Source of the DNA: Alphaproteobacteria bacterium
Lineage (GTDB): Bacteria > Pseudomonadota > Alphaproteobacteria > UBA828
Assembly (NCBI GenBank): GCA_965214705.1
Contig: CBDCCI010000002.1
Span: 256,001-320,000, forward strand
Length of the DNA stretch: 64,000 nt
Direction of reading: 5' to 3'
Under the pieces are notes generated by a model that saw nothing but the letters and a program-made list of their open reading frames with translations, ran no database searches and was not told where the DNA came from. Of the stretch, positions 47,111 to 63,661 are shown piece after piece (the stretch's first letter is position 1; each line of letters opens with the position of its first letter). The position numbers and the translations under genes were made by a program.

Positions 47111-47407
47111 CTAAAAGGGGATCGATCCGGCCGGATCCGCGGACGTGTCCGAACCGTTCGCGGGCTCGTCCGCGGGCTGCGCCGAGGCCGTCGCGCCGTT
47201 GCCGTTGGACCCGTTCGCCTTGTCGAGGAACTGGATCCGCGAGCCGGGGACGAGCAGGATCTCGGTCGAGAACCGATCCGAGTCCTCACCGTCCTTCCGC
47301 CACTTCCTGGTCTGCAGCTTGCCCGCGACGTAGACGAGCCGGCCCTTCTTCGCGTGCTTCGCGAGCATGTCGATCAGCCCGTCCTGGAAGGTCACGCAGC
47401 GGTGCCT
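47111..47407 (-). pseudogene. ssb: Single-stranded DNA-binding protein, 5'-truncated
   Basis: HRCV-F, KKGRLVYVAGKLQTRKW, C-terminal IPF; similarity ends abruptly at ~47408. Confidence 0.88.
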
Positions 47408-47634
47408 TTCAGTAAGTTGGGGATTATCGGCTACGCCACACGTACGCATGAGTGCCTAGATGTGCGATAAATCGCTCTATGAATACAGGTTTCTCCCGCT
47501 TCCTCGCGTACAGCCCGTATCTTTCTCGCGACAGACGCGCGCTCCGATACGCGTTTGTTCCACATCGGTCGCTTGCAGGGTGCTTACGATTCACCTACCA
47601 TGCAAAACCGTCAAGAATTCGCTACCCCCGACCC

Positions 47635-48816
47635 ATGCCCAGACGCGCCGAACGCAAACTCTCCAAACGCACCGTCGACGCCCTCGCCGCCGAGCGGCGC
47701 GACGCCGTCTTCTGGGATCGCGACCTGCCCGGCTTCGGGGTCAGGGTTTATCCCTCCGGCCGCAAGGTCTACCTCGTTCAGACCAGGGGACCGAACGGCT
47801 CGAAGCGGGCAACGCTCGGCAGCCACGGAGACCTCACCCCGGAGCAGGCCCGCAAGAAGGCCGCGGTCGCCATCGACCGCATCAAGCGCGGCGAACACCC
47901 GCTCCCGGCAGAGCCGCAGCCCGAGCCCACCGTGGCCGACCTGGCCGCGCACTACATGCGTGCCCATGTGGAGGTGAACTGCCAGCCGGCGACCGTGAAG
48001 GACTACCGGCGCACCCTCGACCTGCACATCCTGCCCGCCCTCGGGGAGATGACGCTCGCCTCGGTCGAGCGCGAGCATGCCGCCGACCTCCACTACCGGC
48101 TGCGCGAGACGCCGACGCGGGCGAACGCGGCGCTGAAGATCCTGTCGCACATATTCGCCCTGGCTCCGGGCTGGGGTTTCGAGACAGGCGGCAGGAACCC
48201 CTGCCGCTTCGTGCGCGGCTATCGTGAGCGCAAACGCGATCGCTTCCTGACCCGCGACGAGTACCGCCGGCTGGGCGACGTCCTGGACGAGGCGGAGAGG
48301 GGCCGGATGTCGGTGCACACGGTGGCCGCGATCCGCGTGCTGATGCTGACCGGGTGCCGGCGCAACGAGGTCCTGGAGCTGAAGTGGGACGACGTGGACC
48401 GGACGGCGGGGGAGCTGCGGATTCGTCATGCCAAGACCGGCCCGCGCCGGGTGCCGCTGACGCCGGCCGTGGCGGAGATTCTGGACGCGCTCCCTCGCGT
48501 GGAGGGCAAGCCCTGGGTGTTTCCGGGCCGGGGCGCCGACGGCCGTCTGGTCAACATCAACGCGCAGTGGCAGGCCCTGTGCGCCCGCGCCGGGCTTGAG
48601 GACGTGCGCATCCATGACCTTCGTCATTCGTACGCCTCGCGCGCGCTGGCGCTGGGCGAGAGCCTGACCACCATCGGCGGCCTTCTCGGTCACACGAAGG
48701 TGCGGACCACCGCGCGCTATGCGCATCTTGCCCGAGACACGGAGATCGAGGCTTCGGCGAAGATTGGGGCCAGCATCGGCGCCCATGTCCTGCAGGACGG
48801 GACCGGGCCAGCCTGA
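47635..48816 (+). CDS. Tyrosine integrase with arm-binding domain (pair 2, first gene)
   Basis: FWDRDLPGFGVRV, TGCRRNEV, KTG, RIHDLRHS, LGH...TARY. Confidence 0.93.
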   Translation: MPRRAERKLSKRTVDALAAERRDAVFWDRDLPGFGVRVYPSGRKVYLVQTRGPNGSKRATLGSHGDLTPEQARKKAAVAIDRIKRGEHPLPAEPQPEPTVADLAAHYMRAHVEVNCQPATVKDYRRTLDLHILPALGEMTLASVEREHAADLHYRLRETPTRANAALKILSHIFALAPGWGFETGGRNPCRFVRGYRERKRDRFLTRDEYRRLGDVLDEAERGRMSVHTVAAIRVLMLTGCRRNEVLELKWDDVDRTAGELRIRHAKTGPRRVPLTPAVAEILDALPRVEGKPWVFPGRGADGRLVNINAQWQALCARAGLEDVRIHDLRHSYASRALALGESLTTIGGLLGHTKVRTTARYAHLARDTEIEASAKIGASIGAHVLQDGTGPA

Positions 48817-48843
48817 GGCGACGTTCGGGGAAGAGGTTCGGCG

Positions 48844-50037
48844 ATGGCGAAGCTTAAGCGACAGTCGATCTCGCGGCGCACGGTCGAGGCGCTGTCGGTC
48901 GACAAGGACACCGTGTTCTGGGACCGGGAGCTGACGGGCTTCGGGGTCCGCGTCTATCCGTCGGGGTCGAAGTACTACATCGTGCAGGTGCGCGGCCCGG
49001 AGGGCTCGAAGCGTCTCACGGTGGGCCGGCACGGCGTCATCACGGCGGACCGGGCGCGGCAGCGGGCGGCGCTGATCATTGCCCGGATCAAGGCGGGGGA
49101 GGACCCGATCCCGGCACCCCTGCCGCCGCCCCCGGACGGGCCGACGGTCGGCGAGATCGCGGCGCGCTACCTTGAACAGCATGTGGCGGTGCGCTGCAGG
49201 GCGAGCACGGCGGACATGTACCGGCGCAAGATCGAGCGCTACATCCTGCCGGCCTTCGGCACGTTGCCGCTTTCGGCGGTCAGCCGCGAGGACGTAGCCG
49301 GATTGCACTACGAACTCCGCGACAGGCCGGTGCTGGCGAACCATGTTGTCGAGGTCCTGTCGCGCCTGTTCACCATGGCGGAGTACTGGGGCCTTGCGCC
49401 CGAGGGCGGCAACCCGTGCCGGTTCGTGAAGCCCCACCGGGTGCGCCGGCGCGAGCGCTTCCTGACGGAGGAGGAGTTCACCCGCCTGGGCCGGGTTCTC
49501 GCCGAGGCGGAGACGGACGGCCCGGCGATGCCGAGCACGGTGGCGGCGATCCGGCTTCTGATGCTGACCGGGTGCCGGCGCAGCGAGATCCTGGAGCTGA
49601 AGTGGGATGACGTGGACCTGGAGCGCCGCGAGCTGAGGTTGCGCCAGACCAAGACGGGACCGCGCACGGTGCCGCTGAACCCTGCTGCGGTGCAGGTGCT
49701 GTCGGGGCTGCGGCGGGCGCCGGACAATCCCTGGGTGCTGCCGGGCAGGCAGCCGGGCCGGCGTATCTCGAGCCTCAACGAGCCCTGGCTGCGGCTTCGC
49801 AAGCGCGCCGGGCTGGAGGACGTGCGGCTTCATGACCTGCGTCACAGCTTCGCTTCGCGCGCGCTGGCGCTTGGGGAATCGCTTCCGATGATCGCGCGGC
49901 TCCTGGGCCACGCCGAGGTGCAGACGACGGCGCACTACGCCCACCTGAGCCGCGAAGCCCTTAATGCGGCGGCGGCCAGGATCGCGGACAGCATCGGTGA
50001 GGACATTCTTCGCGGCGCCCGGACTTCGAGCCCCTGA
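48844..50037 (+). CDS. Tyrosine integrase with arm-binding domain (pair 2, second gene)
   Basis: FWDRELTGFGVRV, TGCRRSEI, RLHDLRHS, LGH...TAHY. Confidence 0.93.
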   Translation: MAKLKRQSISRRTVEALSVDKDTVFWDRELTGFGVRVYPSGSKYYIVQVRGPEGSKRLTVGRHGVITADRARQRAALIIARIKAGEDPIPAPLPPPPDGPTVGEIAARYLEQHVAVRCRASTADMYRRKIERYILPAFGTLPLSAVSREDVAGLHYELRDRPVLANHVVEVLSRLFTMAEYWGLAPEGGNPCRFVKPHRVRRRERFLTEEEFTRLGRVLAEAETDGPAMPSTVAAIRLLMLTGCRRSEILELKWDDVDLERRELRLRQTKTGPRTVPLNPAAVQVLSGLRRAPDNPWVLPGRQPGRRISSLNEPWLRLRKRAGLEDVRLHDLRHSFASRALALGESLPMIARLLGHAEVQTTAHYAHLSREALNAAAARIADSIGEDILRGARTSSP

Positions 50038-50388
50038 GAGGCGGGGCCGGGACGGGCGGGGAGCGGCAAAGCCAAGCCGGGGGGTCGCAGCCGCCCCGTC
50101 AGTTCGACCCGCAGCAGCGCTAGCAATGTTGTTAAGCTCGCTTTGTTGCCCCCCCCCAATCCAGCAAGATCAATGAGTTACCGCGCCGATCGGCATCCAA
50201 CCCGTGCGCCGATCAACACTTCGGGCACGTCAAGGCAATCCTCAACATCGGATTGTCGACGAAGCCGCGGCCGGTTTATGACTCCTCAATCGGCAACCGC
50301 GGACACAGACGCGTTCGACGATCTGCCCCGGCGATGGTTGCGACATCGTCGGCACCGCCCGCTCACCGCCAAACCGCAGGGTCCCACC

Positions 50389-50801
50389 ATGTCGAAAGTC
50401 ATCGAAAGCCTTCGTTCCCTGGACCGAAAAGAACGCTTTGCGGTCGTACGGGAAGCGCTGTGCATCGACGAACAAACGCCCAAACTCGACAAGGGTTTTC
50501 GCGAGAAGCTGAGCGGCTGCGTCGGCGTGCCGGTACCCGAACACGCGTTCGTCGCCATGGACTACCATCTCGACTGGATCCGGATGTCCCTTCACCTTGC
50601 AGAAAATCCGGCCCCCAGGCCCGGGGAACCGTTCCCCAACCTCGGCTTCGACGACATCAACAACGACCAGGAAGACATCGACCTGCTGGTCGCTTTCGAC
50701 TCGGGGGACGAAACCGCGCCGGCAACGCATCTGGCGATGATCGAAGCGAAGGCCTACCTGCCCTGGACCAACGAGCAACTGAAGTCCAAGACCTGTCGGC
50801 T
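50389..50801 (+). pseudogene. PD-(D/E)XK-like nuclease-fold protein, 5' part
   Basis: QEDIDLLVAF...MIEAKA; interrupted at the TSD and continues at 52328-52583. Confidence 0.65.
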
Positions 50802-51013
50802 GGGTGTGGTTCTGGTATGGCGGTAATGAACCCGGTCTGATCCATGAGTCCTTGCGGTGCGGAGCGTCCTCACCTCCCAGTCAAGCCGGCTGTCGAGACA
50901 AAATCCTGCCCTGGAACGGTCGATTGTCACGAAACCCCGATTTCGGCTGTCTGCCTCGACCCATGAAACGTTCTACGTCAATGACTTACGATTGCCATAC
51001 CAGACCCACACCC
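50802..51013 (-). mobile_element. ISKra4-related MITE 1 (212 bp)
   Basis: IRs GGGTGTGG-TCTGGTATGGC; ~160 bp homologous to the ISKra4 left end at 23377. Confidence 0.85.
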
Positions 51014-51036
51014 ACTTCAAGCGGTGAACCTACTAT

Positions 51037-51994
51037 TTACTTGCCTTCCGGCGCAATTGCATCCTCTAGGTTCAGACTCTTGAGGTGAGGCTCAAGTGCG
51101 TTGATCAGCCGATTCATTGAGTCGGTCATCAGGTCGTGCGTCTTTTTCCAACTCTGCTCGGGATCGCTGTATCCTCCCTGCACGGTTGCTCGTATGCGAC
51201 AGGCCCGTTTTCCCTCCAATTTCTCCCATCTAAGCGGTCCTCCAAATGCACCTTCAATCTCCTCCTTCCGTGCACAAAGTTGATTGAAAATGTGCAGATT
51301 CAGATGATCCATGTTCTTGCCGCGGTCGACATAAAGCTCTGCAGCAGCCTCGTTCTGCCAAACCACGTAATTGAAGCTCGCACCGCGCACCCCAAGAGCT
51401 AAGCCCCATCCACGAGTGATGCCTTGGACTGATGTGCCGGTGAAGCGTCGCGTCCGGGTGCTGAACCAACTGTGACCACCATTTGTAGCGCGTATGATGC
51501 CGCTCGCTCATTTCTTGCTTGCTGCGCCCGATCGATTTCCCCTCTTCGGATGGACCAACGATCACGGTGAGCAAAGGGGCAGGTAATGAGTTGTCGATGC
51601 GGATGGCCTCGATTTTCACGAGATAGAAGTCGGCACTCGACGACTCATTGAGCCAAGTCATGGCGGCGACGTGCTCAGGGCGTGGATCGGCCACAATCCA
51701 GACAGCAACCTTGGCCTGCATGGCAGTCAGGTAGGTAATCAGCTTGCCCAAATGGTCGTGATTGCTCTTCTCCAATTGGTTCTCGATTATGATTGAAGAC
51801 CCATCGTTTCCTTCCGCAACCAGATCAGCACTGAAGGTGCTCTCTGTCTTCCTCTCCCTTTCGACATTTTCGATATCGCGACTTATTGCGGCGCTTAAGA
51901 CATCAATGTTTTCCTCAAGCCACTTTGTGAAGTCGTACGCTTCGTGCTTCCAGAGATCGCGAAGCGAGACACGTTCAATCTTTGCTATCGACAT
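51037..51994 (-). pseudogene. Endonuclease-fold + DUF4268 protein, frameshift near 51395
   Basis: HEAYDFTKWL, ADL, IIIENQL--S-HDHLGK-ITY; C-terminal IEGAFG--L-WE-L-GKRACRI; split over two frames. Confidence 0.8.
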
Positions 51995-52072
51995 CCTCAT
52001 CCTTCTTCGGGCGGGTGGTCGTCTTCCGCGTCAGTCTGCAGGCGGCCGTCGGCGCGAAGCCGGGCTTCGACC

Positions 52073-52319
52073 GGGAGCGGTTCTTGTATGGCGGGAATGG
52101 GCGTTTCCGCTTGATACACCTTCCGCTCAGCACCATACATGCCCATCCCGCTTGATGCACGCGGCGCCGTCATCCTGCCCCCGATGGCGTGCGGCCCCAT
52201 CCTGACAGGATTCCGCCCGGGTCGGGCACTTTGTCACGAAAATCCGGAGTCAGACGAACAGGGAGCGCCTAAGCCATTGAATCTCAACACTCTCAATCCG
52301 CCATCCCAGAACCCCACCC
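52073..52319 (-). mobile_element. ISKra4-related MITE 2 (247 bp)
   Basis: IRs GGGAGCGGTTCTTGTATGGCGG / CCGCCATCCCAGAACCCCACCC; shares TTTCGTGACAA with the ISKra4 end. Confidence 0.8.
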
Positions 52320-52327
52320 TGTCGGCT

Positions 52328-52583
52328 CCGAGAGATGTTCGGCGAAGACGGAATGCAGGCCGGCGTGGTGAAGCCGCATTTCCTACTGATGACGGCCCGC
52401 AGGTCGGACAAAATCTTGACCGCCACGTGGCCCGGCTGGACAAAAGACAGGCAGGGAAACCCGCTCTGGCTCGATTACGACTTGCCTTCCCGCCGCAAGG
52501 TCACGCGCTGCGATGCCGGCGGCAAGCCCGACAAGCGCGGCGGTCACCTGCGGCTCGACCCCGTGCCGCGTTCGATCAAATAA
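52328..52583 (+). pseudogene. 3' part of the 50389 gene
   Basis: KTCRL|REMFGEDG..PHFLLM rejoined across the TSD TGTCGGCT. Confidence 0.7.
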
Positions 52584-52596
52584 CGGCCCACATCAT

Positions 52597-52899
52597 TCAA
52601 CTGGTGCGCCGTCCGGTCGTGCGCTGGATTCCTGCCCCGACACAATCTGCCCGCGACCCGATTTCGCGGGCTCGCGCCTGTCCCCGGATACCTCGGACCA
52701 ATCCGCCGGAGGTCCTTCCCGCAGCAGCTTGAACAACGACTGCCGCGCGAGTTCGAACAGGCAGCCCCAGCGCCTCCGCTCTTCCGCCGTGCCAGCGGTT
52801 GGCCGTACGGTGCGCCTTGTCGTTCCGCACCAGGTACTCGTGCAGCATGTAATCCGCCGCTTTCGACGCTGACGCCAGCGCGCACGGACCCGAGAGCAT
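52597..52899 (-). pseudogene. Degenerate MOBF relaxase N-terminal remnant
   Basis: SASKAADY...RWHGGRAEALGL resembles the W-G-GA--LGL motif. Confidence 0.4.
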
Positions 52900-53362
52900 C
52901 CTAGCGTCCGGAGCGCGGGCGGGCTGACGGGGTGCGGTGTTGTTCGGCGTGCAACTTGGACCCCCCAGTATCGAGCCGCTTCAATGGCTTATCGCGCTGA
53001 TCGGCGCACAATCCACGCGCCGAACAACACTCGGGGTGGCGCGGAACCCGCATATCCGCACAACCTCCGCAAGCGCGATACATTAGCACAGTTGCGGACA
53101 ATTGCCGCGCAAGGCACCGCGCGGCGCGCCGGCTGCTCCGCGATCGTGAACGGGGACATGCAGCACGGTCCACGCTTGCGCGTTGTGGAGATGGTCGATC
53201 CCTTCGCCGCAATCGCCGGCGATACGGTGGCGTCGCCGATCGGGCGGCGACGCCCGCAGACGCATACCCAGAGCGGTGAAGGCAGCGCTTGGTGTAGGCC
53301 AGTTCGATGGAGGAGGATCAGCGCAAGTGGGGCCTCTAACGATTCAAGAAAGCCATTTCTGG

Positions 53363-56300
53363 CTAGGACGCAAAGGAACTACGGGGCAGCAGGGGCTTCC
53401 ATTCCCGCCCGTTCGCATTTCCGGAAGACCAGAAAACGGGAAGGGTGTTGTTGGGGATTGTGTTGTGAAAGGAAACGAGAGCAGCCACGTCTCCGAAGCC
53501 CAGCGGATGTTGGGGTGTCAGTTGCTGCCCAATTTGAAACATTATCTCTTCTGCATATGCTCTTTCGCTGTCGTCGTCGAATATGCCGGCGTCAGGTGAA
53601 AACGCCTTCACCTGGTCATCGAATGTGGTCATGGTTAGGACGCTTACTTCCGGAAATTCGTGTTGCAGTCGCATAATCGCTTCCGGAAAGGCCGTTTGGA
53701 GACAGCACACGACGCGACCTTCGCCGGCGAGTTCGGAGAACAGCTGCTCATCCAGCGACCAAAGTCGTTTGAGGCCCTGCACAAGAGTGTTTCCGGTGCC
53801 TGCAAAGTCATCGACGACGACGAGTACGGGGTCGTTGTCGAGACGTGCCTGGACCCAGGTGTACATGCCTTTGACGTGACTGCATTTTCCCGGACTCATG
53901 CGTTTGGCGAGCTCTCGAGCGGTAGCGGCTCCGCTTTTCGTATCCGAGTCGACGTGACCCAAGTAAAGGTTATCTTTTCTTCGCCTGAATATACGCCACG
54001 CACCGTCGCCGATGTCTTGCCTGCGCGCATTCAGTGAATTGTCCATCTTTGCGAGGCCATTGACGCTCGCGCCATCATTAACAAATCCGTTCTCTGCAAG
54101 CCGCTTGAGCAACATAAAGGCTACCTCGACACGGCTGTCATCGTCGAACTGGCGTAACCATCGACGGACCTCTGCGACGTCTATTTGGCGTCCCAGATAA
54201 ACGAGACGCTCGGACACGGAGAGAAGCTCGTCCTCTGTGATCGGGAAAGCGGCGGACTCGATGATCGTCAATGGAGTCGTCTCATCTACCGGCTCTGTCG
54301 CGGCCAGTTCTTCCTGGAAAGATCGCCAAACCGGTATGAGTTCAACCTCACCGCTCTCGAGCAACCAGTCTCGGAATGCAGGGAGCGCGACCTCATAACC
54401 TCGTGAACCGGCCTTTTGGCGGGAGATAACGCGTCTTCGCATCAGCCCGTCCTGGATTTCGCGAAGATCCTGTGGTGACAACCGCTCGTGGGGTTCCAAA
54501 TCGAGTTGCTTTTGCGCTTCTATCAGATCATCTACCGATTCATATTCACCCGAACCGAGCCTTGCCACGATCGCGAGGAAGAGGCAGTTGCGGGCAACAG
54601 ACCCCTGCTTGTGGTTGGGATCGAGAACGGGAACGTCTTCCCAAAAATGCGCGAAGTTCGTCGGCCCAAGCTCTCGCACCAGACTACGCCGCACGTAATC
54701 GAAATCGCTGGTCCCCACGTAAGTGCGCTGCTCCTGAGCGCAGCGGCGGAATACTTTGCCAGCGACAAGATGCATGTAGAACGGATTGCCCCGACAATAG
54801 TCCACGATGCGCTTTACGGTGTCAGGATCGTACTCGATCTTGCCGGCGAGTGGTTGGATTAGAAGGGCTTCGCAATCGGCGTCTACTTCGATTCGGTCAA
54901 GAGAACTATTGATCCATTTATTTAGGTCGGCCGAATGACTATGGTAGATGCTGTTCATTCGTTCGCTGCCGACGAACATGAAGGTCAATCCAACCTCCGA
55001 GAGCGAGCGCAGAGCCTTGACGAACTGCTTACCGCGTTCTCCCAAGTAGAAGGCGGGATTGAGATCGTCAAACTCATCGATGATGACCAACATCTTGCGG
55101 CCGATTTCGCGCGCTAACCCGTCGACGTAGGGAACAAGGCGGCCGAGACCCGCTCGGAAGTCATCTTCGGCGGGTGGTTGGCGCTGGATGCCCAGCGCAC
55201 TTGTCAGGCGGGTGGCCAAAGTGTGTCCAAGCTGTCCTTCGTGCAGGGACGCCAATTCGCCCATTCGCAGCACAACGCACACGATGTCGTCACGGGCATC
55301 AAGGTTAGCGGCTAGGACCTGGAGCACCGAGGTCTTGCCGACTCGCTTCTGGCCCCACAAGAACGTGGATGTCTCGTTCGAGACGTGAAGTTCGAGCTCA
55401 GCGAGGACGGAGTCCCTACCGTAAAGATCTTTCTTTTCTCGGATCGGATTGATTGCGTAGGGAGGGTTCTTGAGTAGCTCGTCCCAGTCTGGCTGGGTGC
55501 GTTGCTGTTGGAACTCGAGATACTGCTCAAATTTCAAGGTTCGCCCGTTTGCCGTCTGGCATGCCAGCGCAGCCTGGAGGTTGAATGTTCTATCGCCTGG
55601 GGCGTTGCTCAACTTGAGCTGGATCAAGCGTTCGGTGTGGGGTGGGAGGTCGAAGGGAGTGGAAGGTTCGAAAGCGGAGAGTGTTGCGATTCCAACTGGA
55701 TCGGCCAATAGGATGCTGACCGAGTAGGCTGTTCCATCCCCGTCGTTGACCACGCGCGCCGGAAATACGATACCGTCGTTGCGGCCGCCGAGATCAAGCT
55801 TGAACGTGCCGCCCACGATTTCGAGCGCAGGCTTCATCATCTCGTCACTCGCCTGGGTTCCTTCTTCGATGAGGCGGGACATGTGCTTGGCCACTGGCTC
55901 CAGCACCATCCTCTGGAGTCTGTGGTTCACATTGTCGCCCAGTCCATCGAGCGTCCGTTGCAATTGACGAGTTAAGTCACGCGCGCGCCTGGGAATTCGT
56001 TCGGCCTCGTATCTCTCGCAGCTTTCGCAGAACTTGCGGAACAAGGTTCCCAGCAGCGTTTCAACATCCCGAAGAGTCTGCCGTTCCCCCAGGAGCGCGT
56101 AAGGCGTGTATGCATGAGCGTGCTTGATGATGTCGGTGGATGGCAACTTGGCAGCGACGACCGTCGACTGGCAGAAGCTTTGTACTGCCCTGTCCAACGC
56201 CGAACTCAGTTCCCTTGTTTTGACCGTGGCTGCGGTCATCGTTGCGGACGGGTTGGTCCTTGCGGGAAGGCGGAGCAGTGAGCGGAGCGGCGGTGCAATC

Positions 56301-57364
56301 CGATAGCTGAGATCGCCAACTCGCGCTGGAAGCTCCCGGCCTGCGTCTTCCATTCTCAATGTTGCATGAAGTGTCGCCAGGGCAAGCGATTCGACAACGA
56401 ATTTGTCGATGTGCTCCAGCAGATCCGCGATGGTGTTAATCTCGGCATCCACTGGGTTGGTCGACGCCCACCACGTGACGGTGTTTACGAATGTCTTCTC
56501 AAGATCGGCGTTGTCTACCAAATGCAGTTGCGATGCAAATGCTTCTCCCACACCGAGGCTGTCGCCATTCGTTCGGTAACGGTCAAGGATGGCCTGGAAC
56601 TCTTCGGCTTTGCCCTCCGGTTCGCCAGGGTCTCTTGCGGTGTCAGCCTGTGCTTTGTCCTGTGCCCCAACAGGAACGTCAACTAGAAGGGATACCGAAG
56701 GCGGGCGTTCTGTCCCGATCGCTAGAAGGTCCTCGACCGGACCGGCCGACTCGCCGCGGCCCCGCTTCCGCTCACGCCAGCCAAGGTCCGGCTCGCCGCG
56801 GCCCACAGGTTCGGCCAAGACGGTCGAGGCATCCACGGCCACGATGGACGAAACCATCGGACCCTGACGGCCTTCCGTCACCTCGCAGGTCACGGTCGCG
56901 CCCTGCGGCAGCGTGTCGTACCCGGCGTCCCTGACGACCGAGGCATGGCAGAACACGTCGGGCGAGCTGTCGTCGGGCACCAGAAACCCGAAGCCTTTCG
57001 CCGGATTGAACCATTTCACGGCAGCCACGACGCGGCGGCCCCGAGCCGGACCAGGCTCGCCGTGACCATGTCCGTACGCCCTGCGCGGCGACATGCCGCC
57101 CCTCGCCGGGATCGCGGTCGAGGTATCGACGGCATGAATCTGCGTGACTTGGGGACCCTGGCAGCCCTGCTCGACCTCACACGTTACAGTCGCACCCTCG
57201 GGCAGAGTTTCGAAGCCCGCCCACTTCACTACCGATGCATGGCAGAAGATGTCGCGCGAGCCTTCGGCGGGGGTCAGGAAACCAAAACCCTTCACCGGAT
57301 TGAACCATTTGACCGCCGCAACGACCGTTGCGCCGGGCGCCGACCCTGAACCGCCTTCCCGCAT
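53363..57364 (-). CDS. 1333-aa chimera: 2x cold-shock domain + Ig-like + STAND/P-loop ATPase + wHTH + PRTase-like domain
   Basis: VKWFNP-KGFGF / D-FCHAS twice; LYGR, GQKRVGKTS, IIDEFD, GNPFY; VVDDFAGTG, PLGFG..HNTIPNNTLPVFW. Confidence 0.8.
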   Translation of the reverse strand: MREGGSGSAPGATVVAAVKWFNPVKGFGFLTPAEGSRDIFCHASVVKWAGFETLPEGATVTCEVEQGCQGPQVTQIHAVDTSTAIPARGGMSPRRAYGHGHGEPGPARGRRVVAAVKWFNPAKGFGFLVPDDSSPDVFCHASVVRDAGYDTLPQGATVTCEVTEGRQGPMVSSIVAVDASTVLAEPVGRGEPDLGWRERKRGRGESAGPVEDLLAIGTERPPSVSLLVDVPVGAQDKAQADTARDPGEPEGKAEEFQAILDRYRTNGDSLGVGEAFASQLHLVDNADLEKTFVNTVTWWASTNPVDAEINTIADLLEHIDKFVVESLALATLHATLRMEDAGRELPARVGDLSYRIAPPLRSLLRLPARTNPSATMTAATVKTRELSSALDRAVQSFCQSTVVAAKLPSTDIIKHAHAYTPYALLGERQTLRDVETLLGTLFRKFCESCERYEAERIPRRARDLTRQLQRTLDGLGDNVNHRLQRMVLEPVAKHMSRLIEEGTQASDEMMKPALEIVGGTFKLDLGGRNDGIVFPARVVNDGDGTAYSVSILLADPVGIATLSAFEPSTPFDLPPHTERLIQLKLSNAPGDRTFNLQAALACQTANGRTLKFEQYLEFQQQRTQPDWDELLKNPPYAINPIREKKDLYGRDSVLAELELHVSNETSTFLWGQKRVGKTSVLQVLAANLDARDDIVCVVLRMGELASLHEGQLGHTLATRLTSALGIQRQPPAEDDFRAGLGRLVPYVDGLAREIGRKMLVIIDEFDDLNPAFYLGERGKQFVKALRSLSEVGLTFMFVGSERMNSIYHSHSADLNKWINSSLDRIEVDADCEALLIQPLAGKIEYDPDTVKRIVDYCRGNPFYMHLVAGKVFRRCAQEQRTYVGTSDFDYVRRSLVRELGPTNFAHFWEDVPVLDPNHKQGSVARNCLFLAIVARLGSGEYESVDDLIEAQKQLDLEPHERLSPQDLREIQDGLMRRRVISRQKAGSRGYEVALPAFRDWLLESGEVELIPVWRSFQEELAATEPVDETTPLTIIESAAFPITEDELLSVSERLVYLGRQIDVAEVRRWLRQFDDDSRVEVAFMLLKRLAENGFVNDGASVNGLAKMDNSLNARRQDIGDGAWRIFRRRKDNLYLGHVDSDTKSGAATARELAKRMSPGKCSHVKGMYTWVQARLDNDPVLVVVDDFAGTGNTLVQGLKRLWSLDEQLFSELAGEGRVVCCLQTAFPEAIMRLQHEFPEVSVLTMTTFDDQVKAFSPDAGIFDDDSERAYAEEIMFQIGQQLTPQHPLGFGDVAALVSFHNTIPNNTLPVFWSSGNANGREWKPLLPRSSFAS

Positions 57365-57700
57365 TCCTGACGACCTGCCTTTCCTTGATTGCCGGAGCCA
57401 GGCCGCCGCCGGGCCACCGGTCGAATGATCGCGGCGGAGCGGTCTCCGCCACCGGGCTGGCATCATAGTTACGGCCGGGGCGCGGCAACAGATCCGTGAC
57501 GCCTTGTGTGTCCGCCTCCAGCATCGCGTCATAACGAAGTCGCCCTCCGCCACCGCCGCGCGCCGCCTCCCCGTCGTCATTCTGCCGCCACACGTCTGTG
57601 CGCCACCGCGAGCGAGAGGCCGGCCGTGACGCGGGCGGCGGGGGCGGCGCTGCGGAGCGTGTCCCCGCCGTCGGCAACCACCACCGGGGGAGACGGCAAG

Positions 57701-58024
57701 ATGCGGACCGGCCGAATGTTCCATCGCGACGCGCAGACCTTTCTGGTGCACCTGTTCGGCAGAGGTCTCGACGACGAGCGCTACGTGGTCGAGAAGTACC
57801 GTTCCCATCCCAACGGCGAGATCGAGCCCATCCAGGCGGAGGAGCCCAGGACGAAGGGCCGGCGCAGGCCGCGCAGGAAGATCGTCTCGCGCAAAGCGGT
57901 CCGGGAGATGCGGCCCGAACGCGACGAGATCATCGTCTGCACAGGGGTCAAGCTGGCCCGCTCCGGAGTCCAGATCTGGGGTGTTGCCGCGGCAGGCCTC
58001 GGCCTCGTGCGCACCGCGCGCTGA
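57701..58024 (+). CDS. Hypothetical protein (start uncertain)
   Basis: Protein-like ORF closely upstream of the zinc-finger gene. Confidence 0.45.
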   Translation: MRTGRMFHRDAQTFLVHLFGRGLDDERYVVEKYRSHPNGEIEPIQAEEPRTKGRRRPRRKIVSRKAVREMRPERDEIIVCTGVKLARSGVQIWGVAAAGLGLVRTAR

Positions 58025-58039
58025 CCGGGGTGGCCGGTC

Positions 58040-58849
58040 ATGCCGCTCAGGGACCCGGTGAAGAAGAAGGCGCGGGACCTTCGCCACCGTCAGCGCCACG
58101 CCGCGCGCTCCGCCAGCGGCCGTTGCACCCGCTGCGGGCGACTTCCTCCCGAGCCCGGTCGCAAAGTGTGTACAGGCTGTGCCGAGAAGCGCCGCGCCGC
58201 CGACCGCGCCCGCCGTGCCAGAGCCCGGCAGCAGGGGATGCCGTACGGCGGCCGCGATCCGGAGCAGTGCCGACGCGCCGACCGCGCCGGCGACAGGCGC
58301 CGCCGCCGGGCGCGTCTCGAGGCGGGCCTCTGCACGTCCTGCGGCCTCCGCCGGCCGGAGGACAACCGCTCCGTCTGCGAGCCGTGCCGCGAGGCAAGGC
58401 GCGCACGCGACCGCCGGCGCTATGAGACGCGAAGGGTGGCCGGCCGCTGCGTGCGCTGCACGCAGCCCACGGTCGGCGGCCTGTCGCGCTGCGGCCGGTG
58501 CCTCGCGCTGGAAAAGGAACGCGTCTGTCCCGAGCAAGAGAGCGCCGCCGGGAAGAGACGCTATGTCGCGAGGCGAGCGCAGGGCGCGTGTGTGGATTGT
58601 GGAGTCCCCACCGGCGGCTCGGCCCGCTGTCCGCGCTGCGCATATCGATCCAACTCCCGCGCGCCCGAGCGCCACCTGGCGGCGCTCTGGCCGCCGCAGA
58701 TCACCGTGGTCGAATTGGAGACGGGCGAGGAGCTGGGCGTCTTCGAGACCGAATCCGAGGCCGCCGCCTGCATCGCCTTCGCCCGCCTGCGCCCCGACCA
58801 GGTGGAGATCCTCTCCAACGTTCCCTTGATGGCTTTGTCGCCCTCATGA
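58040..58849 (+). CDS. Multi-zinc-ribbon basic protein
   Basis: Four CxxC-x9-11-CxxC units linked by Arg-rich segments. Confidence 0.75.
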   Translation: MPLRDPVKKKARDLRHRQRHAARSASGRCTRCGRLPPEPGRKVCTGCAEKRRAADRARRARARQQGMPYGGRDPEQCRRADRAGDRRRRRARLEAGLCTSCGLRRPEDNRSVCEPCREARRARDRRRYETRRVAGRCVRCTQPTVGGLSRCGRCLALEKERVCPEQESAAGKRRYVARRAQGACVDCGVPTGGSARCPRCAYRSNSRAPERHLAALWPPQITVVELETGEELGVFETESEAAACIAFARLRPDQVEILSNVPLMALSPS

Positions 58850-59093
58850 GCGCTGACCCGCCGCGGGCGTTCCGAACGTGAACCTGCTCCCGTCAACCGC
58901 GATACCTAATGGGCGCCACGGCAGTCACCGGCCGTGCGGTCCGCGAGGCCTCGTGAACCCGGCGGGCCTCAGAGCAGGCGGCAGACGAGAGGAGGTGTGG
59001 AGCTTGGAGAAGGTGAGCAGGGCGGGGCCGAGGAGAGGCTCCAGCCCGCTCGCCAACCTTCGTCATCAACTCGAATCGACAGGAGACAAGACC

Positions 59094-59537
59094 ATGGCTT
59101 TCGGATTGAACAGGGCCGAAGTGATCGGCCGGCTGGGTGCCGATGCGACCATCAGCAACCTCGCCTCCGGCGGGCGCGTCGCCAACATGAGCATCGCGAC
59201 CGACGAGAGCTACATCGACAGGCAGAGCGGCGAGAGGGTGGATCGGACGGAGTGGCATCGCGCGGTCAGCTTCCAGAGCGGGCTGATCGACATGCTGGAG
59301 AAGCACGCGAAGAAGGGCCGGTTGGTCTACGTCGCGGGCAAGCTGCAGACCCGCCGGTGGCGCAAGGACGGCGAGGACAGCGACCGGTTCTCGACCGAGA
59401 TCCTGCTCGTCCCCGGTGGCCGCATGCAGTTTCTCGATCGCCCCGCCGGCAGCAACGGCAACGGCGCCCAGGCGTCCGACGGTGAGGCTGCGCCGGCTGC
59501 CGATGCCGATCCCGCGGATAGCACCATACCGTTCTAG
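59094..59537 (+). CDS. ssb: Single-stranded DNA-binding protein
   Basis: LNRAEVIGRLGAD, TEWHR, GKLQTRRW, C-terminal IPF. Confidence 0.95.
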   Translation: MAFGLNRAEVIGRLGADATISNLASGGRVANMSIATDESYIDRQSGERVDRTEWHRAVSFQSGLIDMLEKHAKKGRLVYVAGKLQTRRWRKDGEDSDRFSTEILLVPGGRMQFLDRPAGSNGNGAQASDGEAAPAADADPADSTIPF

Positions 59538-59820
59538 TTAAACCCCGCGGCGGGCTTCCTCGGCCCGCCCGCCCCATGGCCGGACTCGCGTCCCTCCCGC
59601 GCGGGTTCGGCCATTTTTGTGCAGCGTGTTCCGAGTCCCTCACGGGCCGGACGGCGGGGCTCGCGCTTCGCGCGCCGCCCGCCGTCCCGGCTCCTCCAGG
59701 AGAAAGAGTGAGGCCGGGACCGGGCACGTCCCATCCAGCGGCCAGCGAGGTCCCCATGCTCTCCATCTCCGCTCACGGTCCCGGCTTCGCCGGCTCCCGC
59801 CCCCGCCCGAGGTGTGCGCC

Positions 59821-60801
59821 ATGAACGCGGCCTCCGTCGCCGCAGCACTCGCCGAGCGCGCCGAAGAGGTCTGCCGCCGATACCTGCCCTACGGGCGGCG
59901 CCGGGGCCGGTATTGGGTCGCGGGCGACCTCGACGGTGGGCGCGGCCGATCCCTTTACGTCCGCCTCGCGCCGCCGGGTGCGTCCGGGAAGTTCACCGAT
60001 GCAGCCACGGGGGAGCATGGCGATCTGCTCGACATCATCCGCCACCGCACCTGCGCGCCGACGCTGCGCGCGGCGCTCGACGAGGCCCGCGCCTTCCTCG
60101 CCCGGCCGGCTTCGCCGGCCGCGGGCTCGGGCGACTCCTACGACGCCACCGAAGCGGCGCGGCGTCTCTGGCGCCGCTGCCGCGCCATCGACGGCACGCA
60201 TGCGGAAGCCTACCTGCGCGCCCGGGGACTCGCGCGCTGCCGCTTCGCGGCCCTGCGCTTCCATCCCGCGTTGCTCTACAGGGATGGCGGCGGCATTCGC
60301 CGCCTGCCGGCCCTCGTCGCCGCTGTAACCGCTCGCGACGGCGACATCGTCAGCGGTGTCCATCGCACATGGTTGGACCCTCAGCGCCCCGCGAAGGCAA
60401 ACCTCTCATCGCCGCGCAAGGCGCTGGGCCGCGTGCACGGCCATGCCGTCCGTTTCGGCGCTCCCGGCGCCGGCACGCTGCTGGTCGGCGAGGGCATCGA
60501 GACCGTGCTGTCCGTCGTCACCGCCATCCCCGACACCGTCGCCGCAGCAGCACTGTCCGCCGGCAGCCTCGGCGCATTCGCACCGCCTACCGGCCTCACG
60601 CGGCTGGTCATCGCGCGCGACAACGACCCCGAGGGAGAGCGTGCCGCCGAGCGCCTCGCCCGCCGCTGCGCGCGGGCGGGCGTCGCCGCCACCGTCATCG
60701 TGCCTCGCGGCACCGACTTCAACGAGGACTTGCTCACCTTCGGTCCCGCCGCGCTCGCCGCCTGGACGGCGGCCGCGCTCGCAGACCGGGAGCTCGAGTG
60801 A
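59821..60801 (+). CDS. Toprim-domain primase-like protein
   Basis: G-F-D-ATGEHGDLLD, AEAYLRARG, VHRTWL, VGEGIET, IARDND, DFNEDL. Confidence 0.88.
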   Translation: MNAASVAAALAERAEEVCRRYLPYGRRRGRYWVAGDLDGGRGRSLYVRLAPPGASGKFTDAATGEHGDLLDIIRHRTCAPTLRAALDEARAFLARPASPAAGSGDSYDATEAARRLWRRCRAIDGTHAEAYLRARGLARCRFAALRFHPALLYRDGGGIRRLPALVAAVTARDGDIVSGVHRTWLDPQRPAKANLSSPRKALGRVHGHAVRFGAPGAGTLLVGEGIETVLSVVTAIPDTVAAAALSAGSLGAFAPPTGLTRLVIARDNDPEGERAAERLARRCARAGVAATVIVPRGTDFNEDLLTFGPAALAAWTAAALADRELE

Positions 60802-60877
60802 AGCAGGCGAGCGGCGATCCTCATGGAGAGGAGAGAGAGTCCTTTCCGCACCGGCATCACGCTACGGGGAGAAGGCC

Positions 60878-61012
60878 ATGAGCAGCGACATCAGGTTCCG
60901 GCGGGTGGGCGAGAACGAAGCCCGCGTCTATCAGGACGGCGACTACGTCGGGGACGTCTTCCGTCACGACGACATCCTCAACCGCGGCGCCGTGTTCTAC
61001 GTGGTGCACCTC
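60878..61012 (+). pseudogene. Small hypothetical protein truncated by the RIT end
   Basis: Homology to 46512-46739 stops at YVVHL. Confidence 0.7.
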
Positions 61013-61343
61013 CTATGTTGAGCTCAACATAGTGAATTGGCCTGTATCGGTCGTGCGCAGCAGGACCGATACAGGCATTGAGCTGAGCCGCGCTGCACGG
61101 CCGTAGTGCCGGGCTATGGGGAAAGTAACCGCTGGGTGGGAGCCGATTAGGCCGAAGCGGTGCAACCTGTTGGTGTCGCTGGCGGCGCCGGCACTCTGAA
61201 TCTCCACTTATCAGGTTGCGACGCGGCTGTGCAGGGGCTCGCGACGATGTTTCGCCGCCGGGCAGCACGAAGCGGGCGCAGGAGCGGTCGCGGCGCGGCG
61301 GCCGGGGGGACTGTTGTCGGACCTTGTCGGTTCTGACGCATCG

Positions 61344-62564
61344 TCACGGCGGTCGGGTATTCGTCGCCCGCATGGCTGCTTGGGGCTGCGGCTCAAGAAT
61401 GACGGTTTGCCGCAGCGTTGCCTCGCCGCACTGGCGGCACACGGTGATGTCGATCCCCGTCAGTCGCAGCATCATCTGCTGCGTCGTTTCCGGCTCCCGC
61501 GGTTCAGGGGCAGGCTGGCCGAGCAGGTCTCGGCAGCGGGCGAGCTTGCGAGCCCGGCAGCGATTGGCGAGCAAGCCGTAGTGGCGCAGGCGGGTGAAGC
61601 CGCGCGGGAGGACGTGCAGGAGGAAGCGGCGGATGAACTCGTCGACGTCGAGACGCATCACCTTGACCTTGTTGCCGTCAGCGTAGTCGCGCCAACGGAA
61701 GCGAACGTGCTCGCCGTCGAAGTCGACGAGGCGATGATTGGCGATGGCAGCCTTGTGGGTGTAGCGCCCGAGATAGGCCAGAACGTGCCCGGCGCCGGCG
61801 AACGGGGCCTTGGTGTAGACCACCCAGTCGTTCGACCGCAGCGCGGTCTTCAGACACTCGAACTCGCGGCTGTCGTCACCACCGCCGACGACCTTGAGCC
61901 GGAGTTCGCCGTCGCGGTGCGCGGCGCCGAGGAAGTCGAGATACTTGCCGCGGAAGACCTTCGAGAGCGCGACCGTGGGGAACAGGAAGCCCTTGCGCGC
62001 GGGAGTGAGCCAGCGCTCTCTGTCCGGGCTCAGACCGCCGTCGGTGACGATACAGTGGACATGGATGTGCTGTCCCAGATTCTGCCCCCAAGTGTGCAGC
62101 ACCATGGTGATGCCGAGCTCGCCGCCGAGCCAGCGGGGATTGCGGCCGAACTCGAGCAGGGTCTGGGAGGCGGCCTTGAAGAGCAGCCTGTAGATGAGCG
62201 CGGCATTGCCCTGGGCCACGGGGTTGAGCTCGTGGGGCAGGGTGAACACGACATGCCAGTAGTCGATGTCGAGCAGATCGGCGCACTGACGCTCAACCCA
62301 CCTGGTCTGCGAGAGGGTCTGGCACTTGGGGCAATGACGGTTCCGGCACGAGGCGTACTGGATCGTCACCGCCCCGCAGTGATCGCATTCTGCCTTGAAC
62401 CCGCCGAGCACAGCGGTGCGGCAGTTCACCAGCGCGTCGACGACCCTCTGCTGCTGGGCCGAGAGCAGATGTGTCTCGCCATAGGCGTCGCCGCGCTCGC
62501 GCAGGATGTCCGCGACCTCCAGCGCCGGCCGTGTGGCTGGCGCCGCGTGGCCGACATGAGCCAC
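61344..62564 (-). CDS. IS91-family Y2 transposase
   Basis: SCRNRHCPKC, HVVFTLP, HTWG...HIHVH, YLGRYTH. Confidence 0.93.
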   Translation of the reverse strand: MAHVGHAAPATRPALEVADILRERGDAYGETHLLSAQQQRVVDALVNCRTAVLGGFKAECDHCGAVTIQYASCRNRHCPKCQTLSQTRWVERQCADLLDIDYWHVVFTLPHELNPVAQGNAALIYRLLFKAASQTLLEFGRNPRWLGGELGITMVLHTWGQNLGQHIHVHCIVTDGGLSPDRERWLTPARKGFLFPTVALSKVFRGKYLDFLGAAHRDGELRLKVVGGGDDSREFECLKTALRSNDWVVYTKAPFAGAGHVLAYLGRYTHKAAIANHRLVDFDGEHVRFRWRDYADGNKVKVMRLDVDEFIRRFLLHVLPRGFTRLRHYGLLANRCRARKLARCRDLLGQPAPEPREPETTQQMMLRLTGIDITVCRQCGEATLRQTVILEPQPQAAMRATNTRPP

Positions 62565-62567
62565 CGG

Positions 62568-63422: not shown

Positions 63423-63661
63423 GGGGCGTCTCCCTCTGGGTTTGGTCTGTCACGAAGACACGCCCATGCTCTTGCTCGCCGGCTTGGCGGTCGACGACCA
63501 TCGATCAACGAGGGAGAAACAGGATTCGACCCTGCGCCCAGACGCTGGAGCGAACGGCCACACTCAACTTACGCGCGGCAAGGAGATCACTCTGGGCACC
63601 CGGCGGCCGAGGCGCCCCGCCGCGGAACGCGGCTCAGTTCAAGAGATGGCATTTCGCGTCG

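What the first reader, a model, noticed from the sequence alone, without database searches (positions are those of the whole stretch)
53363..57364. Cold-shock domains fused in frame to a STAND ATPase with a C-terminal PRTase effector
Seen: one uninterrupted 1333-aa frame with two CSDs, then helical/Ig-like, P-loop, wHTH and PRPP-binding VVDDFAGTG regions. Composition changes abruptly near 56725, at a CTAG, where GC drops. Known: STAND ATPases are prokaryotic immune sensors (Avs), and PRTase domains occur as conflict-system effectors. Inference: either a new ssDNA/RNA-sensing nucleotide-depleting defence protein, or a recent deletion fusing a backbone multi-CSD gene to a 5'-truncated defence gene. 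The STAND-PRTase architecture is unusual in either case.
Basis: partly seen in the sequence, partly recalled or inferred. Interest (0 to 1): 0.72.

Follow-up and report, generated by a model that had tools for sequence, protein, structure and literature searches.

The report
Accidental cold-shock / STAND-PRTase gene fusion
A recombination accident in this strain joined the front two-thirds of a multi-copy cold-shock-domain gene, in frame, to a horizontally acquired immune-sensor-like gene that lost its own small head domain; the chimera is real DNA but a one-off, while the sensor family behind it is large and widespread.

Summary
There is one open 1333-codon frame (57364 to 53363, minus strand). 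It has two cold-shock domains, a helical domain, a beta-sandwich, a STAND/Orc-Cdc6-like P-loop NTPase with a winged helix, and a C-terminal PRTase-CE domain. GC drops sharply at the join.

The genome carries about eight paralogs of a THREE-CSD gene inside a multi-copy mobile backbone. All eight DNA alignments to those copies stop at window base 56730. Beyond that base lies a unique, low-GC gene. Its homologs (245 word-indexed hits; 3202 cluster representatives) carry a conserved ~67-residue winged-helix head, probably OST-HTH/LOTUS-like, and never a CSD (0 of 266). The break has 2 nt of microhomology and falls in a predicted disordered linker.

Short-read contigs from two studies cross the join without a difference. 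A ~96% identical copy in a third organism runs into the native head at that very base.

So this is a strain-specific in-frame chimera, not an established ssRNA/ssDNA-sensing architecture, and STAND-PRTase itself is not rare. Whether the chimera still works is open. All invariant catalytic residues are intact, and a natural subfamily lacks the head. By analogy with retron PRTase effectors, the parent family probably acts by PRPP or nucleotide depletion.

The parts
53363..57364 (-). Chimeric open reading frame, 1333 codons plus stop
56730..57364 (-). Part derived from a backbone three-CSD paralog (residues 1-212); the third CSD is missing
   Evidence: 63-79% aa identity to 7 paralogs over residues 1-212/213. 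The paralogs run on into a third CSD and end at ~280 aa. 8 blastn alignments to paralog backbones all stop at 56730.
57134..57319 (-). Cold-shock domain 1 (residues 16-77)
   Evidence: Pfam PF00313; NCBIfam CspE-like
56825..57025 (-). Cold-shock domain 2 (about residues 114-180)
   Evidence: Second CSD stretch; NCBIfam CspD-like stretch 114-182
57365..57680 (-). 5' region conserved with the paralogs (presumed promoter and leader of the CSD gene); no consensus promoter was found
   Evidence: blastn alignments to stand-alone paralogs run to 57491-57680. The promoter scan found nothing on this strand.
56729..56731 (-). Recombination junction: paralog homology ends at 56730, and native-gene homology in another organism's contig runs to 56731, giving 2 nt (GA) shared by both parents
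53363..56729 (-). Horizontally acquired STAND-type NTPase / PRTase-CE gene lacking its first ~67 codons; unique in this genome, GC 0.53-0.61
56621..56725 (-). Predicted disordered linker just after the junction (residues 214-248 of the chimera)
   Evidence: pLDDT below 50 at model residues 16-34; block means 60, 52, 42, 56
55838..56620 (-). All-helical domain (model residues 36-296), no family assigned
   Evidence: no usable Atlas hit
55505..55825 (-). Beta-sandwich (Ig-like) domain (model residues 301-407)
54386..55438 (-). P-loop NTPase with helical and winged-helix parts (STAND / Orc1-Cdc6 / Arch_ATPase-like). Walker A GQKRVGKTS is at 55328-55354; also present are Walker B DEFD, a GRD motif before Walker A, and GNP.
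   Evidence: Pfam AAA_22; invariant columns; Foldseek 2qen TMt 0.70, 2fna 0.64, Orc1/Cdc6, NLR resistosomes; NB-ARC chain E 4e-6
53381..54169 (-). PRTase-CE effector domain. The PRPP-loop motif VVVDDFAGTGNT is at about 53789-53824, and a PNN motif lies near the C-terminus.
   Evidence: Pfam PF24390 E 1e-35; PADLOC PRTase_III-A E 4e-28; invariant D972 D973 F974 G976 G978 P1091 N1092

Best explanation
The ORF is a strain-specific, in-frame chimera made by illegitimate recombination. This was either a deletion or a direct joining; which one is not known. One parent is a three-CSD gene that sits at the edge of a multi-copy conjugative or integrative backbone (three-CSD gene, Zn-ribbon ORF, SSB, DUF7146-Toprim). 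It was cut after residue 212 and lost its third CSD. The other parent is a horizontally acquired single-gene STAND-type NTPase with a C-terminal PRTase-CE effector. It was cut right after its conserved ~67-residue N-terminal winged-helix module, which is probably OST-HTH/LOTUS-like. The join uses 2 nt of microhomology and lands in a predicted flexible linker, so both halves should still fold.

Shown: both parentages, the exact breakpoint, the reality of the junction in reads, the uniqueness of the CSD fusion among the homologs examined, and the intactness of all family-invariant residues.

Inferred: the chimera is probably transcribed and translated from the CSD gene's own start signals, because there is no stop between the parts. 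The parent family probably works as a one-protein abortive-infection sensor. On this view the N-terminal head, helical and Ig-like region senses an invader cue. The STAND NTPase then oligomerises with nucleotide. This switches on the C-terminal PRTase-CE, which consumes PRPP or otherwise starves nucleotide supply, as reported for the related retron Eco11 effector.

My odds for the chimera's function: about 40% that it keeps the parent's activity (natural relatives without any head exist), about 10% that the CSDs add a new RNA/ssDNA input, and about 50% that it is mis-regulated or inert and on its way to decay.
For: Paralogs: 7 places in the genome match residues 1-212/213 at 63-79% and only the window matches full length. 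The paralog ORFs continue into a third CSD. The 280-aa paralog matches the window only over its residues 1-214.

Breakpoint: all 8 blastn alignments to paralog backbones start at 56730, and nothing else in the genome matches 53031-56729. The three-way comparison shows the join.

Foreign parent: 245 homologs at E<=1e-3, the closest at 86% identity and 1189 aa with an extra N-terminus. There are 3202/1030/425 cluster representatives at E<=1e-3/1e-10/1e-30. 0 of 266 carry a CSD. 0 of 40 relatives' genomes have the gene; there is one weak hit to the PRTase end only. Similarity to 24 homolog loci is confined to 53334-56732, apart from short low-identity hits.

Reads: contigs of X1 (3930 nt) and X3 (4076 nt) from study P1, and X5 (495 nt) from study P2, cross 56729/56730 with 0 differences and equal depth on both sides. 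An X6 contig (11 differences in 309 nt) leaves the window at 56731, and its loose end reads on the gene strand as T-M-L-E-L-A-Q-R-F-P, the end of the native head module.

Head module: conserved in 16 of 16 loci aligned. Pfam OST-HTH hits are weak, in 4 of 7 homologs. The model has pLDDT 81 and the top Foldseek hits include LOTUS domains of TDRD5, TDRD7 and MARF1.

Core intact: the invariant Walker A/B, GRD, GNP, DDFxGxG and PNN columns all include the window copy. The junction lies in a low-pLDDT linker. 31 of 123 homologs aligned from near the start begin at or after the junction-equivalent position.

Against: No expression data: no RNA run was listed as a holder. No promoter-like site was found upstream on the gene's strand. 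The LOTUS assignment of the lost head is weak: all Pfam hits are below the gathering score, no Foldseek hit has E<=0.001, and the PDB profile search gave nothing. The headless ~1100-aa relatives are only ~44% identical and might partly be mis-called starts, so they do not prove that this subfamily tolerates loss of the head. The defence role of the STAND-PRTase family is inferred from domains. Context adds one case (1 of 5 loci whose neighbours I scanned lies next to type I-C cas genes). I found no experimental paper on the family. One of the two read studies may be the source of the assembly, so only one is certainly independent.
Confidence: 0.85

Rival explanations
1. The fusion is an adaptive new sensor. 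The two CSDs bind phage or plasmid ssRNA/ssDNA and gate the STAND NTPase, giving a nucleic-acid-triggered, PRPP/nucleotide-depleting defence protein.
For: The frame is intact and all invariant residues are kept. The replaced head is itself probably a nucleic-acid-binding winged helix of the OST-HTH type. OST-HTH combined with OB-fold domains is described in conflict systems (PMC8195603, passage). The N-terminus of the family is modular, with overhangs from none to >300 aa. CSD proteins serve as retron type V effectors according to the PADLOC and NCBIfam model names.
Against: 0 of 266 homologs have a CSD. A search of long proteins with residues 1-330 returned only 4 hits, all covering the non-CSD part. 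The join has the marks of an accident: 2-nt microhomology, loss of one of three CSDs in mid-gene, and a sharp GC step. A ~96% identical copy elsewhere still has the native head, so the event is very recent. Another backbone copy in this genome is broken inside the same CSD gene at a different point.
Confidence: 0.1
2. The junction is an assembly artefact: a collapse or mis-join among the many ~80% identical backbone repeats.
For: The genome is extremely repetitive, with 8 CSD paralog backbones and many IS copies.
Against: Contigs from short-read runs of two studies bridge the join by 168 nt or more on the CSD side and 320 nt or more on the other side, with 0 differences and equal depth (46 vs 44.7 in X1). 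The paralogs are only 67-86% identical, too divergent to be collapsed.
Confidence: 0.02
3. The locus is functionally two products. The CSD part matters only as a truncated two-CSD protein, or the STAND-PRTase part is made separately from an internal start. On either view the long fusion protein is irrelevant or quickly degraded.
For: The junction lies in a predicted disordered linker that could be cleaved. An in-frame GTG lies about 60 codons after the join (read).
Against: There is no stop codon between the parts, so ribosomes starting at 57364 must read through. No promoter-like or terminator-like site was found near the junction on this strand.
Confidence: 0.05

Closest known systems
STAND-type NTPase + PRTase-CE single-protein family (unnamed; a source calls one member 'phosphoribosyltransferase-like protein', P0084)
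   Same: Residues 214-1333 are 86% identical to the closest member and align end to end. They share the helical, beta-sandwich, NTPase, winged-helix and PRTase-CE order, and all invariant residues.
   Different: The window copy lacks the family's ~67-residue N-terminal winged-helix module and carries two CSDs instead. No other member examined does (0 of 266).
Retron type III-A PRTase-like effectors (e.g. Retron-Eco11)
   Same: The C-terminal domain hits PADLOC PRTase_III-A models (E 4e-28) and Pfam PRTase-CE. It has the PRPP-loop acidic pair and a PNN motif like the retron-specific Gx14PNNxP motif quoted in PMC12746101.
   Different: The few neighbouring ORFs scanned showed no reverse transcriptase, and Rfam found no ncRNA. 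Here the effector is fused to an NTPase instead of working with RT and msDNA.
Avs / NLR-like antiviral STAND proteins
   Same: A P-loop NTPase with winged helix of the STAND/Orc-Cdc6 kind in a large single polypeptide with an enzymatic effector. The structural neighbours include plant NLR resistosomes.
   Different: No Avs model of PADLOC matched at E<=1. The effector is C-terminal and the presumed sensor N-terminal, the reverse of the usual Avs order (order recalled, not tested). No TPR or other repeat sensor is seen in the model.
Multi-CSD proteins of this genome's mobile backbone (three-CSD, ~280 aa)
   Same: Residues 1-212 are 63-79% identical to them, including the conserved start and 5' region.
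   Different: The third CSD is missing and is replaced by 1121 foreign residues.

Membership tests
Cold-shock domain (PF00313) | Match to the CSD profile above the curated cut-off | tested here: met
   104.8 bits against a cutoff of 27, two stretches. KGFGF and VFCHAS motifs can be read in both copies.
Three-CSD paralog family of this genome | Three consecutive CSDs in a ~280-aa protein | tested here: not met
   Only CSD1 and CSD2 remain. Homology ends at residue 212-214.
STAND NTPase | P-loop NTPase followed by helical and winged-helix domains (NOD-like module) | tested here: met
   Model. Foldseek to 2qen (TMt 0.70), 2fna, Orc1/Cdc6 and NLR resistosomes 9h2l and 9ria. NB-ARC chain at E 4e-6.
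STAND NTPase | Sequence signatures: a GR[ED]-type motif before Walker A and a GxP motif in the helical domain (motif definitions recalled from Leipe et al. 2004, not read here) | tested here: met
   Invariant L434 G436 R437 (LYGRD) and N647 P648 (GNP) in 63 sequences.
STAND NTPase | Match to a curated STAND profile above cut-off | tested here: not met
   nSTAND1 14.1 bits (cutoff 27.1), nSTAND6 13.1 bits. Only AAA_22 passes.
PRTase-CE (PF24390) / retron III-A type effector domain | Profile match above cut-off over the whole domain | tested here: met
   124.1 bits, profile positions 1-253 of 253. PADLOC PRTase_III-A E 4e-28.
Type I phosphoribosyltransferase | PRPP-binding loop with an acidic pair followed by small residues | tested here: met
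   VVVDDFAGTGNT; D972 D973 F974 G976 G978 invariant. Uracil PRTase chains are only weak sequence hits (E 0.046).
Type I phosphoribosyltransferase | Catalysed phosphoribosyl transfer or PRPP consumption | not testable with these tools
   Needs an enzyme assay or metabolomics.
Retron system (type III-A) | Reverse transcriptase and msr/msd ncRNA next to the effector | tested here: not met
   No RT among the 10 neighbouring ORFs scanned. No Rfam hit in 49500-59000. Not every small ORF was scanned.
Avs (antiviral STAND) | Match to the Avs models of PADLOC | tested here: not met
   No Avs model among the 8 PADLOC hits at E<=1.
OST-HTH/LOTUS (the head lost here, present in homologs) | Profile match above cut-off, or a clear structural match | tested here: inconclusive
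   4 of 7 homologs hit at E 0.046 to 1.3e-4, all below 23.8 bits. Foldseek hits to TDRD5, TDRD7 and MARF1 LOTUS have TMt 0.63-0.65 but E 0.08-0.33. The PDB profile search was empty.

The most novel reading that the evidence does not exclude
The chimera is a working immune sensor in which two cold-shock domains have taken over the place of the OST-HTH-like head. That would be a natural, very recent head swap caught with its ancestor still in circulation. It would show that the N-terminal head of this large STAND-PRTase family is an exchangeable nucleic-acid-sensing module, and that new sensor specificities can arise by a single illegitimate recombination with a housekeeping-type RNA chaperone gene.
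Probability: 0.1. Interest if true: 0.65.

Novelty: new variant of a known kind. Interest (0 to 1): 0.38.

Why it matters
As a gene, the chimera is most likely an accident of a very plastic genome, so its direct importance is small. It is still a clean, datable example of how modular immune proteins can gain a new head. The break falls in a flexible linker at a domain boundary, it is in frame, both halves are intact, and the unbroken ancestor is seen at ~96% identity in another organism. It also points to a large STAND-type NTPase family with a retron-like PRTase-CE effector. That family spans many phyla, and in three full-text searches I found no paper that describes the NTPase-PRTase architecture or tests it. 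Comparing the native protein, a headless version and this chimera would show whether the head is the sensor and whether PRPP depletion is the output.

Tried and rejected
1. Island insertion that split the CSD gene: I looked for the missing third CSD elsewhere in the window and found none. The sequence downstream of 8 paralog copies has no consistent counterpart in the window. A simple insertion with both halves kept is therefore rejected.

2. Site-specific targeting of the CSD gene by the neighbouring tyrosine integrase family: orphan CSD3 fragments exist elsewhere in the genome. They show no consistent adjacency to the 104 integrase paralogs, so I dropped the idea.

3. Conserved partner genes: tblastx of 49000-58000 against 24 homolog loci gave similarity only over the gene itself. 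Neighbours in 5 loci are unrelated to each other, apart from one type I-C cas locus.

4. Promoter and terminator scan and Rfam (only a chance eukaryotic lncRNA hit below threshold): nothing usable.

5. RNA evidence: no RNA holder was listed by the look-up of sequencing runs, so nothing can be said on expression.

6. ESM Atlas for the helical and Ig-like region: no usable hit.

7. Earlier findings of this scan: nothing by place or by sequence.

8. Literature: searches for PRTase/STAND/effector/conflict systems, 'PRTase-CE' (one paper, a retron survey that uses the Pfam name) and phosphoribosyltransferase/STAND NTPase/OST-HTH found no description of this NTPase-PRTase architecture. The 2026 Nature STAND survey (PMC13581612) has no occurrence of PRTase, phosphoribosyltransferase, cold shock or OST-HTH in its main text. 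Supplements were not seen and might list the family.

Full report
**1. The observation**

On the minus strand one frame is open from 58675 to 53363. From the ATG at 57364 it encodes 1333 residues. That ATG is the conserved start of the gene's paralogs; in one paralog a stop lies 11 codons upstream of it. The extra open frame upstream is what 70-78% GC gives.

Domain hits on the 1333-residue product:
- Pfam finds two cold-shock domains (E 2e-30), AAA_22 at 663-802 (above its cut-off) and PRTase-CE at 1066-1328 (E 1e-35, whole profile). STAND profiles are only weak.
- PADLOC matches the C-terminus to retron type III-A PRTase effectors (E 4e-28) and the N-terminus to the retron type V CSD model. 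No Avs model hits.
- NCBIfam calls the CSDs CspE/CspD-like.

GC falls from 0.68-0.69 (56650-57099) to 0.53-0.61 (53350-56649), in a genome of 0.67.

**2. The CSD half**

The window lies in a 7.9-Mb, three-contig genome. Seven other places encode proteins 63-79% identical to residues 1-212/213 of the ORF. None matches beyond that point.

Read out to their stops, these paralogs are ~280-aa proteins with three CSDs. After the shared '...AGPVEE' they continue 'RSGLVKFYNAAKGYGF...', which is a third CSD. A tblastn with one paralog matches the window only over its residues 1-214 and finds no third CSD anywhere in the window.

At the DNA level, eight alignments to paralog loci (67-86% identity, up to 4.3 kb) all begin at exactly window 56730. 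They run outward through a Zn-ribbon-like ORF, an SSB gene and a DUF7146-Toprim gene, up to an IS element at 61011. The CSD gene is therefore the last gene of a multi-copy mobile backbone, and the window's copy is cut inside it. The sequence downstream of the other copies is different in each and is not found in the window.

**3. The NTPase-PRTase half**

Window 53031-56729 matches nothing else in the genome. None of 40 related genomes has the gene, including 20 of the same genus; there is one weak hit to the PRTase end only.

Searching with residues 214-1333 gives three results:
- 245 proteins at E<=1e-3 among the 7999 candidates scored. The best is 86% identical, and the close ones are 1134-1219 aa and cover 100% of the query.
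- An exhaustive HMMER scan of 1.84 billion cluster representatives finds 3202, 1030 and 425 at E<=1e-3, 1e-10 and 1e-30.
- In species-representative genomes, relatives occur in Alphaproteobacteria, Pseudomonadales, Ectothiorhodospiraceae, Burkholderiales, Bryobacterales, Thermodesulfobacteriota, Gemmatimonadota and others (29 loci).

The NTPase-PRTase architecture is thus common, not unusual. Similarity between the window and 24 of those loci is confined to the gene itself (53334-56732), so it travels as a single gene. Among five loci whose neighbours I scanned, one sits beside type I-C cas genes and the others are uninformative.

**4. What was lost, and where the break is**

The close homologs begin with about 67 residues that the window lacks, ending '...ELVERFP', followed by 'DLLA(L/I)G..RPPSVS'. 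The window reads '...AGPVE-DLLAIGTERPPSVS'. The module is conserved across subfamilies in 16 of 16 loci aligned, with ten invariant positions, the last being the proline just before the break. A profile built from it finds it in 84 of the 266 homologs, nearly always at the very N-terminus.

Its identity is only partly settled:
- It gives sub-threshold Pfam OST-HTH/LOTUS hits in 4 of 7 homologs tested.
- Its model (pLDDT 81) is a winged helix. The best Foldseek neighbours include the LOTUS domains of TDRD5, TDRD7 and MARF1 (TMt 0.63-0.65), but at E 0.05-0.3 and mixed with other winged helices.
- A PDB profile search was empty.

I call it OST-HTH-like, with reserve.

At the nucleotide level the paralogs read ...CCGGTCGAGGA-GCG... 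and the window reads ...CCGGTCGAGGA-CCTTCTAGCG.... The foreign parent's own sequence is seen directly in a read assembly (section 5) up to base 56731. The two bases GA are therefore common to both parents, which is typical microhomology of illegitimate recombination. None of the 266 homologs has a CSD (phmmer, E<=10). A search of 733-2333-aa proteins with residues 1-330 returns four hits, all aligned to the non-CSD part only.

**5. Is the junction real?**

Sixteen listed runs hold at least part of the stretch, and five of them hold half of the sampled words or more. Four runs were laid on 56000-57500:
- A 3930-nt contig of X1 and a 4076-nt contig of X3 (one study) cover 56000-56897 with no difference.
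- A 495-nt contig of X5 (another study, another organism label) covers 56408-56902 with no difference.
- Depth is the same on both sides (46 vs 44.7 in X1).

One of these studies may be the source of the assembly, so I count one as independent.

In X6 (a third organism label) a contig matches 56423-56731 with 11 differences and then departs. Its loose end, read on the gene's strand, translates to T-M-L-E-L-A-Q-R-F-P directly before the D-L-L-A of the window. That is the native head module. The ancestor of the foreign half, with its head, is therefore in circulation at about 96% identity, and the window's break is at that very base. An assembly artefact is excluded for practical purposes, and the event is recent.

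**6. Anatomy of the foreign half**

With a 63-sequence alignment, AlphaFold gives mean pLDDT 89.7. Model residue n corresponds to residue n+213 of the chimera. The model shows:
- residues 1-35: low confidence (a linker; the junction lies here)
- 36-296: all-helical domain
- 301-407: beta-sandwich
- about 430-780: P-loop NTPase with helical and winged-helix parts
- a long helix and a helical bundle
- about 916-1110: PRTase fold

Foldseek places the NTPase module next to the archaeal Walker ATPases 2qen and 2fna (TMt 0.70 and 0.64), Orc1/Cdc6, clamp-loader subunits and plant NLR resistosomes. A profile search of PDB sequences gives an NB-ARC protein at E 4e-6.

Invariant columns include LYGRD before Walker A, GQKRVGKTS, DEFD, GNP, DDFxGxG and PNN. 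The window copy has them all. I file the module as STAND-type on structure and motifs, noting that no curated STAND profile passes its cut-off.

**7. How it probably works**

No experiment on this family was found (section 8). The PRTase-CE domain is the Pfam family of retron type III-A effectors. For Retron-Eco11 the authors report three things (PMC12746101, passages read): the PRPP-loop mutant loses defence, activation by phage helicases lowers PRPP by about half, and retron PRTase-like proteins share a Gx14PNNxP motif. The window protein has '...PNNTLP' in the same place.

By analogy, and by the general logic of STAND proteins (recalled), I propose the following for the parent family. The N-terminal head, helical and Ig-like region recognises an invader cue. 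The NTPase oligomerises. The C-terminal PRTase-CE is then unleashed and drains PRPP or nucleotides, aborting the infection. All of this is inference.

For the chimera, the points in favour of retained activity are:
- the intact frame and invariant residues
- the join in a flexible linker
- the natural spread of N-termini in the family: of 123 homologs aligned from near the start, 31 begin at or after the junction-equivalent position, and others carry up to >300 extra residues

The points against are:
- every close relative (60% identity or more) keeps the head
- the gene now sits behind a CSD gene's expression signals, which may mis-dose a potentially toxic effector
- the neighbourhood is decaying (a frameshifted DUF4268 gene and repeat insertions)

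I put about 40% on retained parental activity, 10% on a new CSD-dependent input and 50% on an inert or mis-regulated relic.

**8. Comparison with the known, and novelty**

The chimera works like, and in its C-terminal 1120 residues is a member of, an unnamed but very large STAND-type NTPase / PRTase-CE family. It is not an Avs by PADLOC. It is not a retron system, since no RT or ncRNA was found. It is no longer a member of the three-CSD family.

Three full-text searches and term look-ups in five papers found no description of the NTPase-PRTase architecture. Supplements were closed and might list it. OST-HTH joined to OB-fold domains is described for other conflict systems (PMC8195603, passage). 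A head of that kind being replaced by OB-fold CSDs is therefore at least thematically plausible.

**9. Verdict**

The CSD-STAND-PRTase architecture is a one-off in what was searched, and the STAND-PRTase part is ordinary in distribution though uncharacterised. Interest is moderate (0.38). It is a tidy natural example of head exchange in a modular immune-type protein, and a pointer to an untested family, but most likely an accident without a selected function.

Noticed in passing
window 56730-61012; also G000 C3:1280878-1285383, C3:2978381-2982655, C1:2986721-2990941, C1:2816894-2821107 and others: A ~4.3-kb backbone block (three-CSD gene, Cys-rich Zn-ribbon-like ORF, SSB, DUF7146-Toprim) is present in about eight copies at 67-86% identity. 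It looks like the leading or maintenance region of a family of conjugative or integrative elements. A three-CSD protein as a regular part of such a block is unusual and unexplained.
   Followed up: partly
G000 C1:2816893-2817408 (outside the window): Another backbone copy is also broken inside its CSD gene, at about residue 171, and reads on into unrelated sequence. Orphan fragments of the third CSD (residues ~245-280) lie at C1:286741-286848, C1:878487-878594 and C1:4039154-4039234. The CSD gene seems to sit at a recombination-prone edge.
   Followed up: partly
window 51037-52000 (-): A DUF4268-family gene is split over two overlapping frames (51254-52000 and 51037-1390). It is probably a frameshifted pseudogene inside the same low-GC segment.
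   Followed up: partly
window 50791-51026, 52936-53036, 50118-50218: Short repeats (about 220, 95 and 95 bp) occur in many copies across all three contigs at 77-97% identity. They look MITE-like and pepper the low-GC segment.
   Followed up: no
window 61011-63645: A 2.6-kb element is present in at least ten further copies at 99.4-100% identity, a very active IS. It ends the backbone homology at 61012.
   Followed up: no
window 47632-50037 (+): Two tandem tyrosine-recombinase genes sit here (the second, 48844-50037, has Arm-binding, SAM-like and catalytic domains). The genome holds 104 tblastn matches of more than 250 aa to this integrase, an extraordinary number.
   Followed up: partly
window 47154-47406 vs 59290-59550: An inverted copy of the SSB 3' region shows that a second, rearranged fragment of the same kind of backbone lies upstream of the integrases.
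   Followed up: no
L012:9804-15397: In one Pseudomonadales MAG the intact homolog lies directly upstream of type I-C CRISPR-Cas genes (Cas3-like helicase, Csd1/Cas8c).
   Followed up: partly
window 57365-58675 (-): The chimeric frame stays open for a further 437 codons upstream of the real start. This is an effect of high GC that could mislead gene callers into a 1770-aa product.
   Followed up: yes
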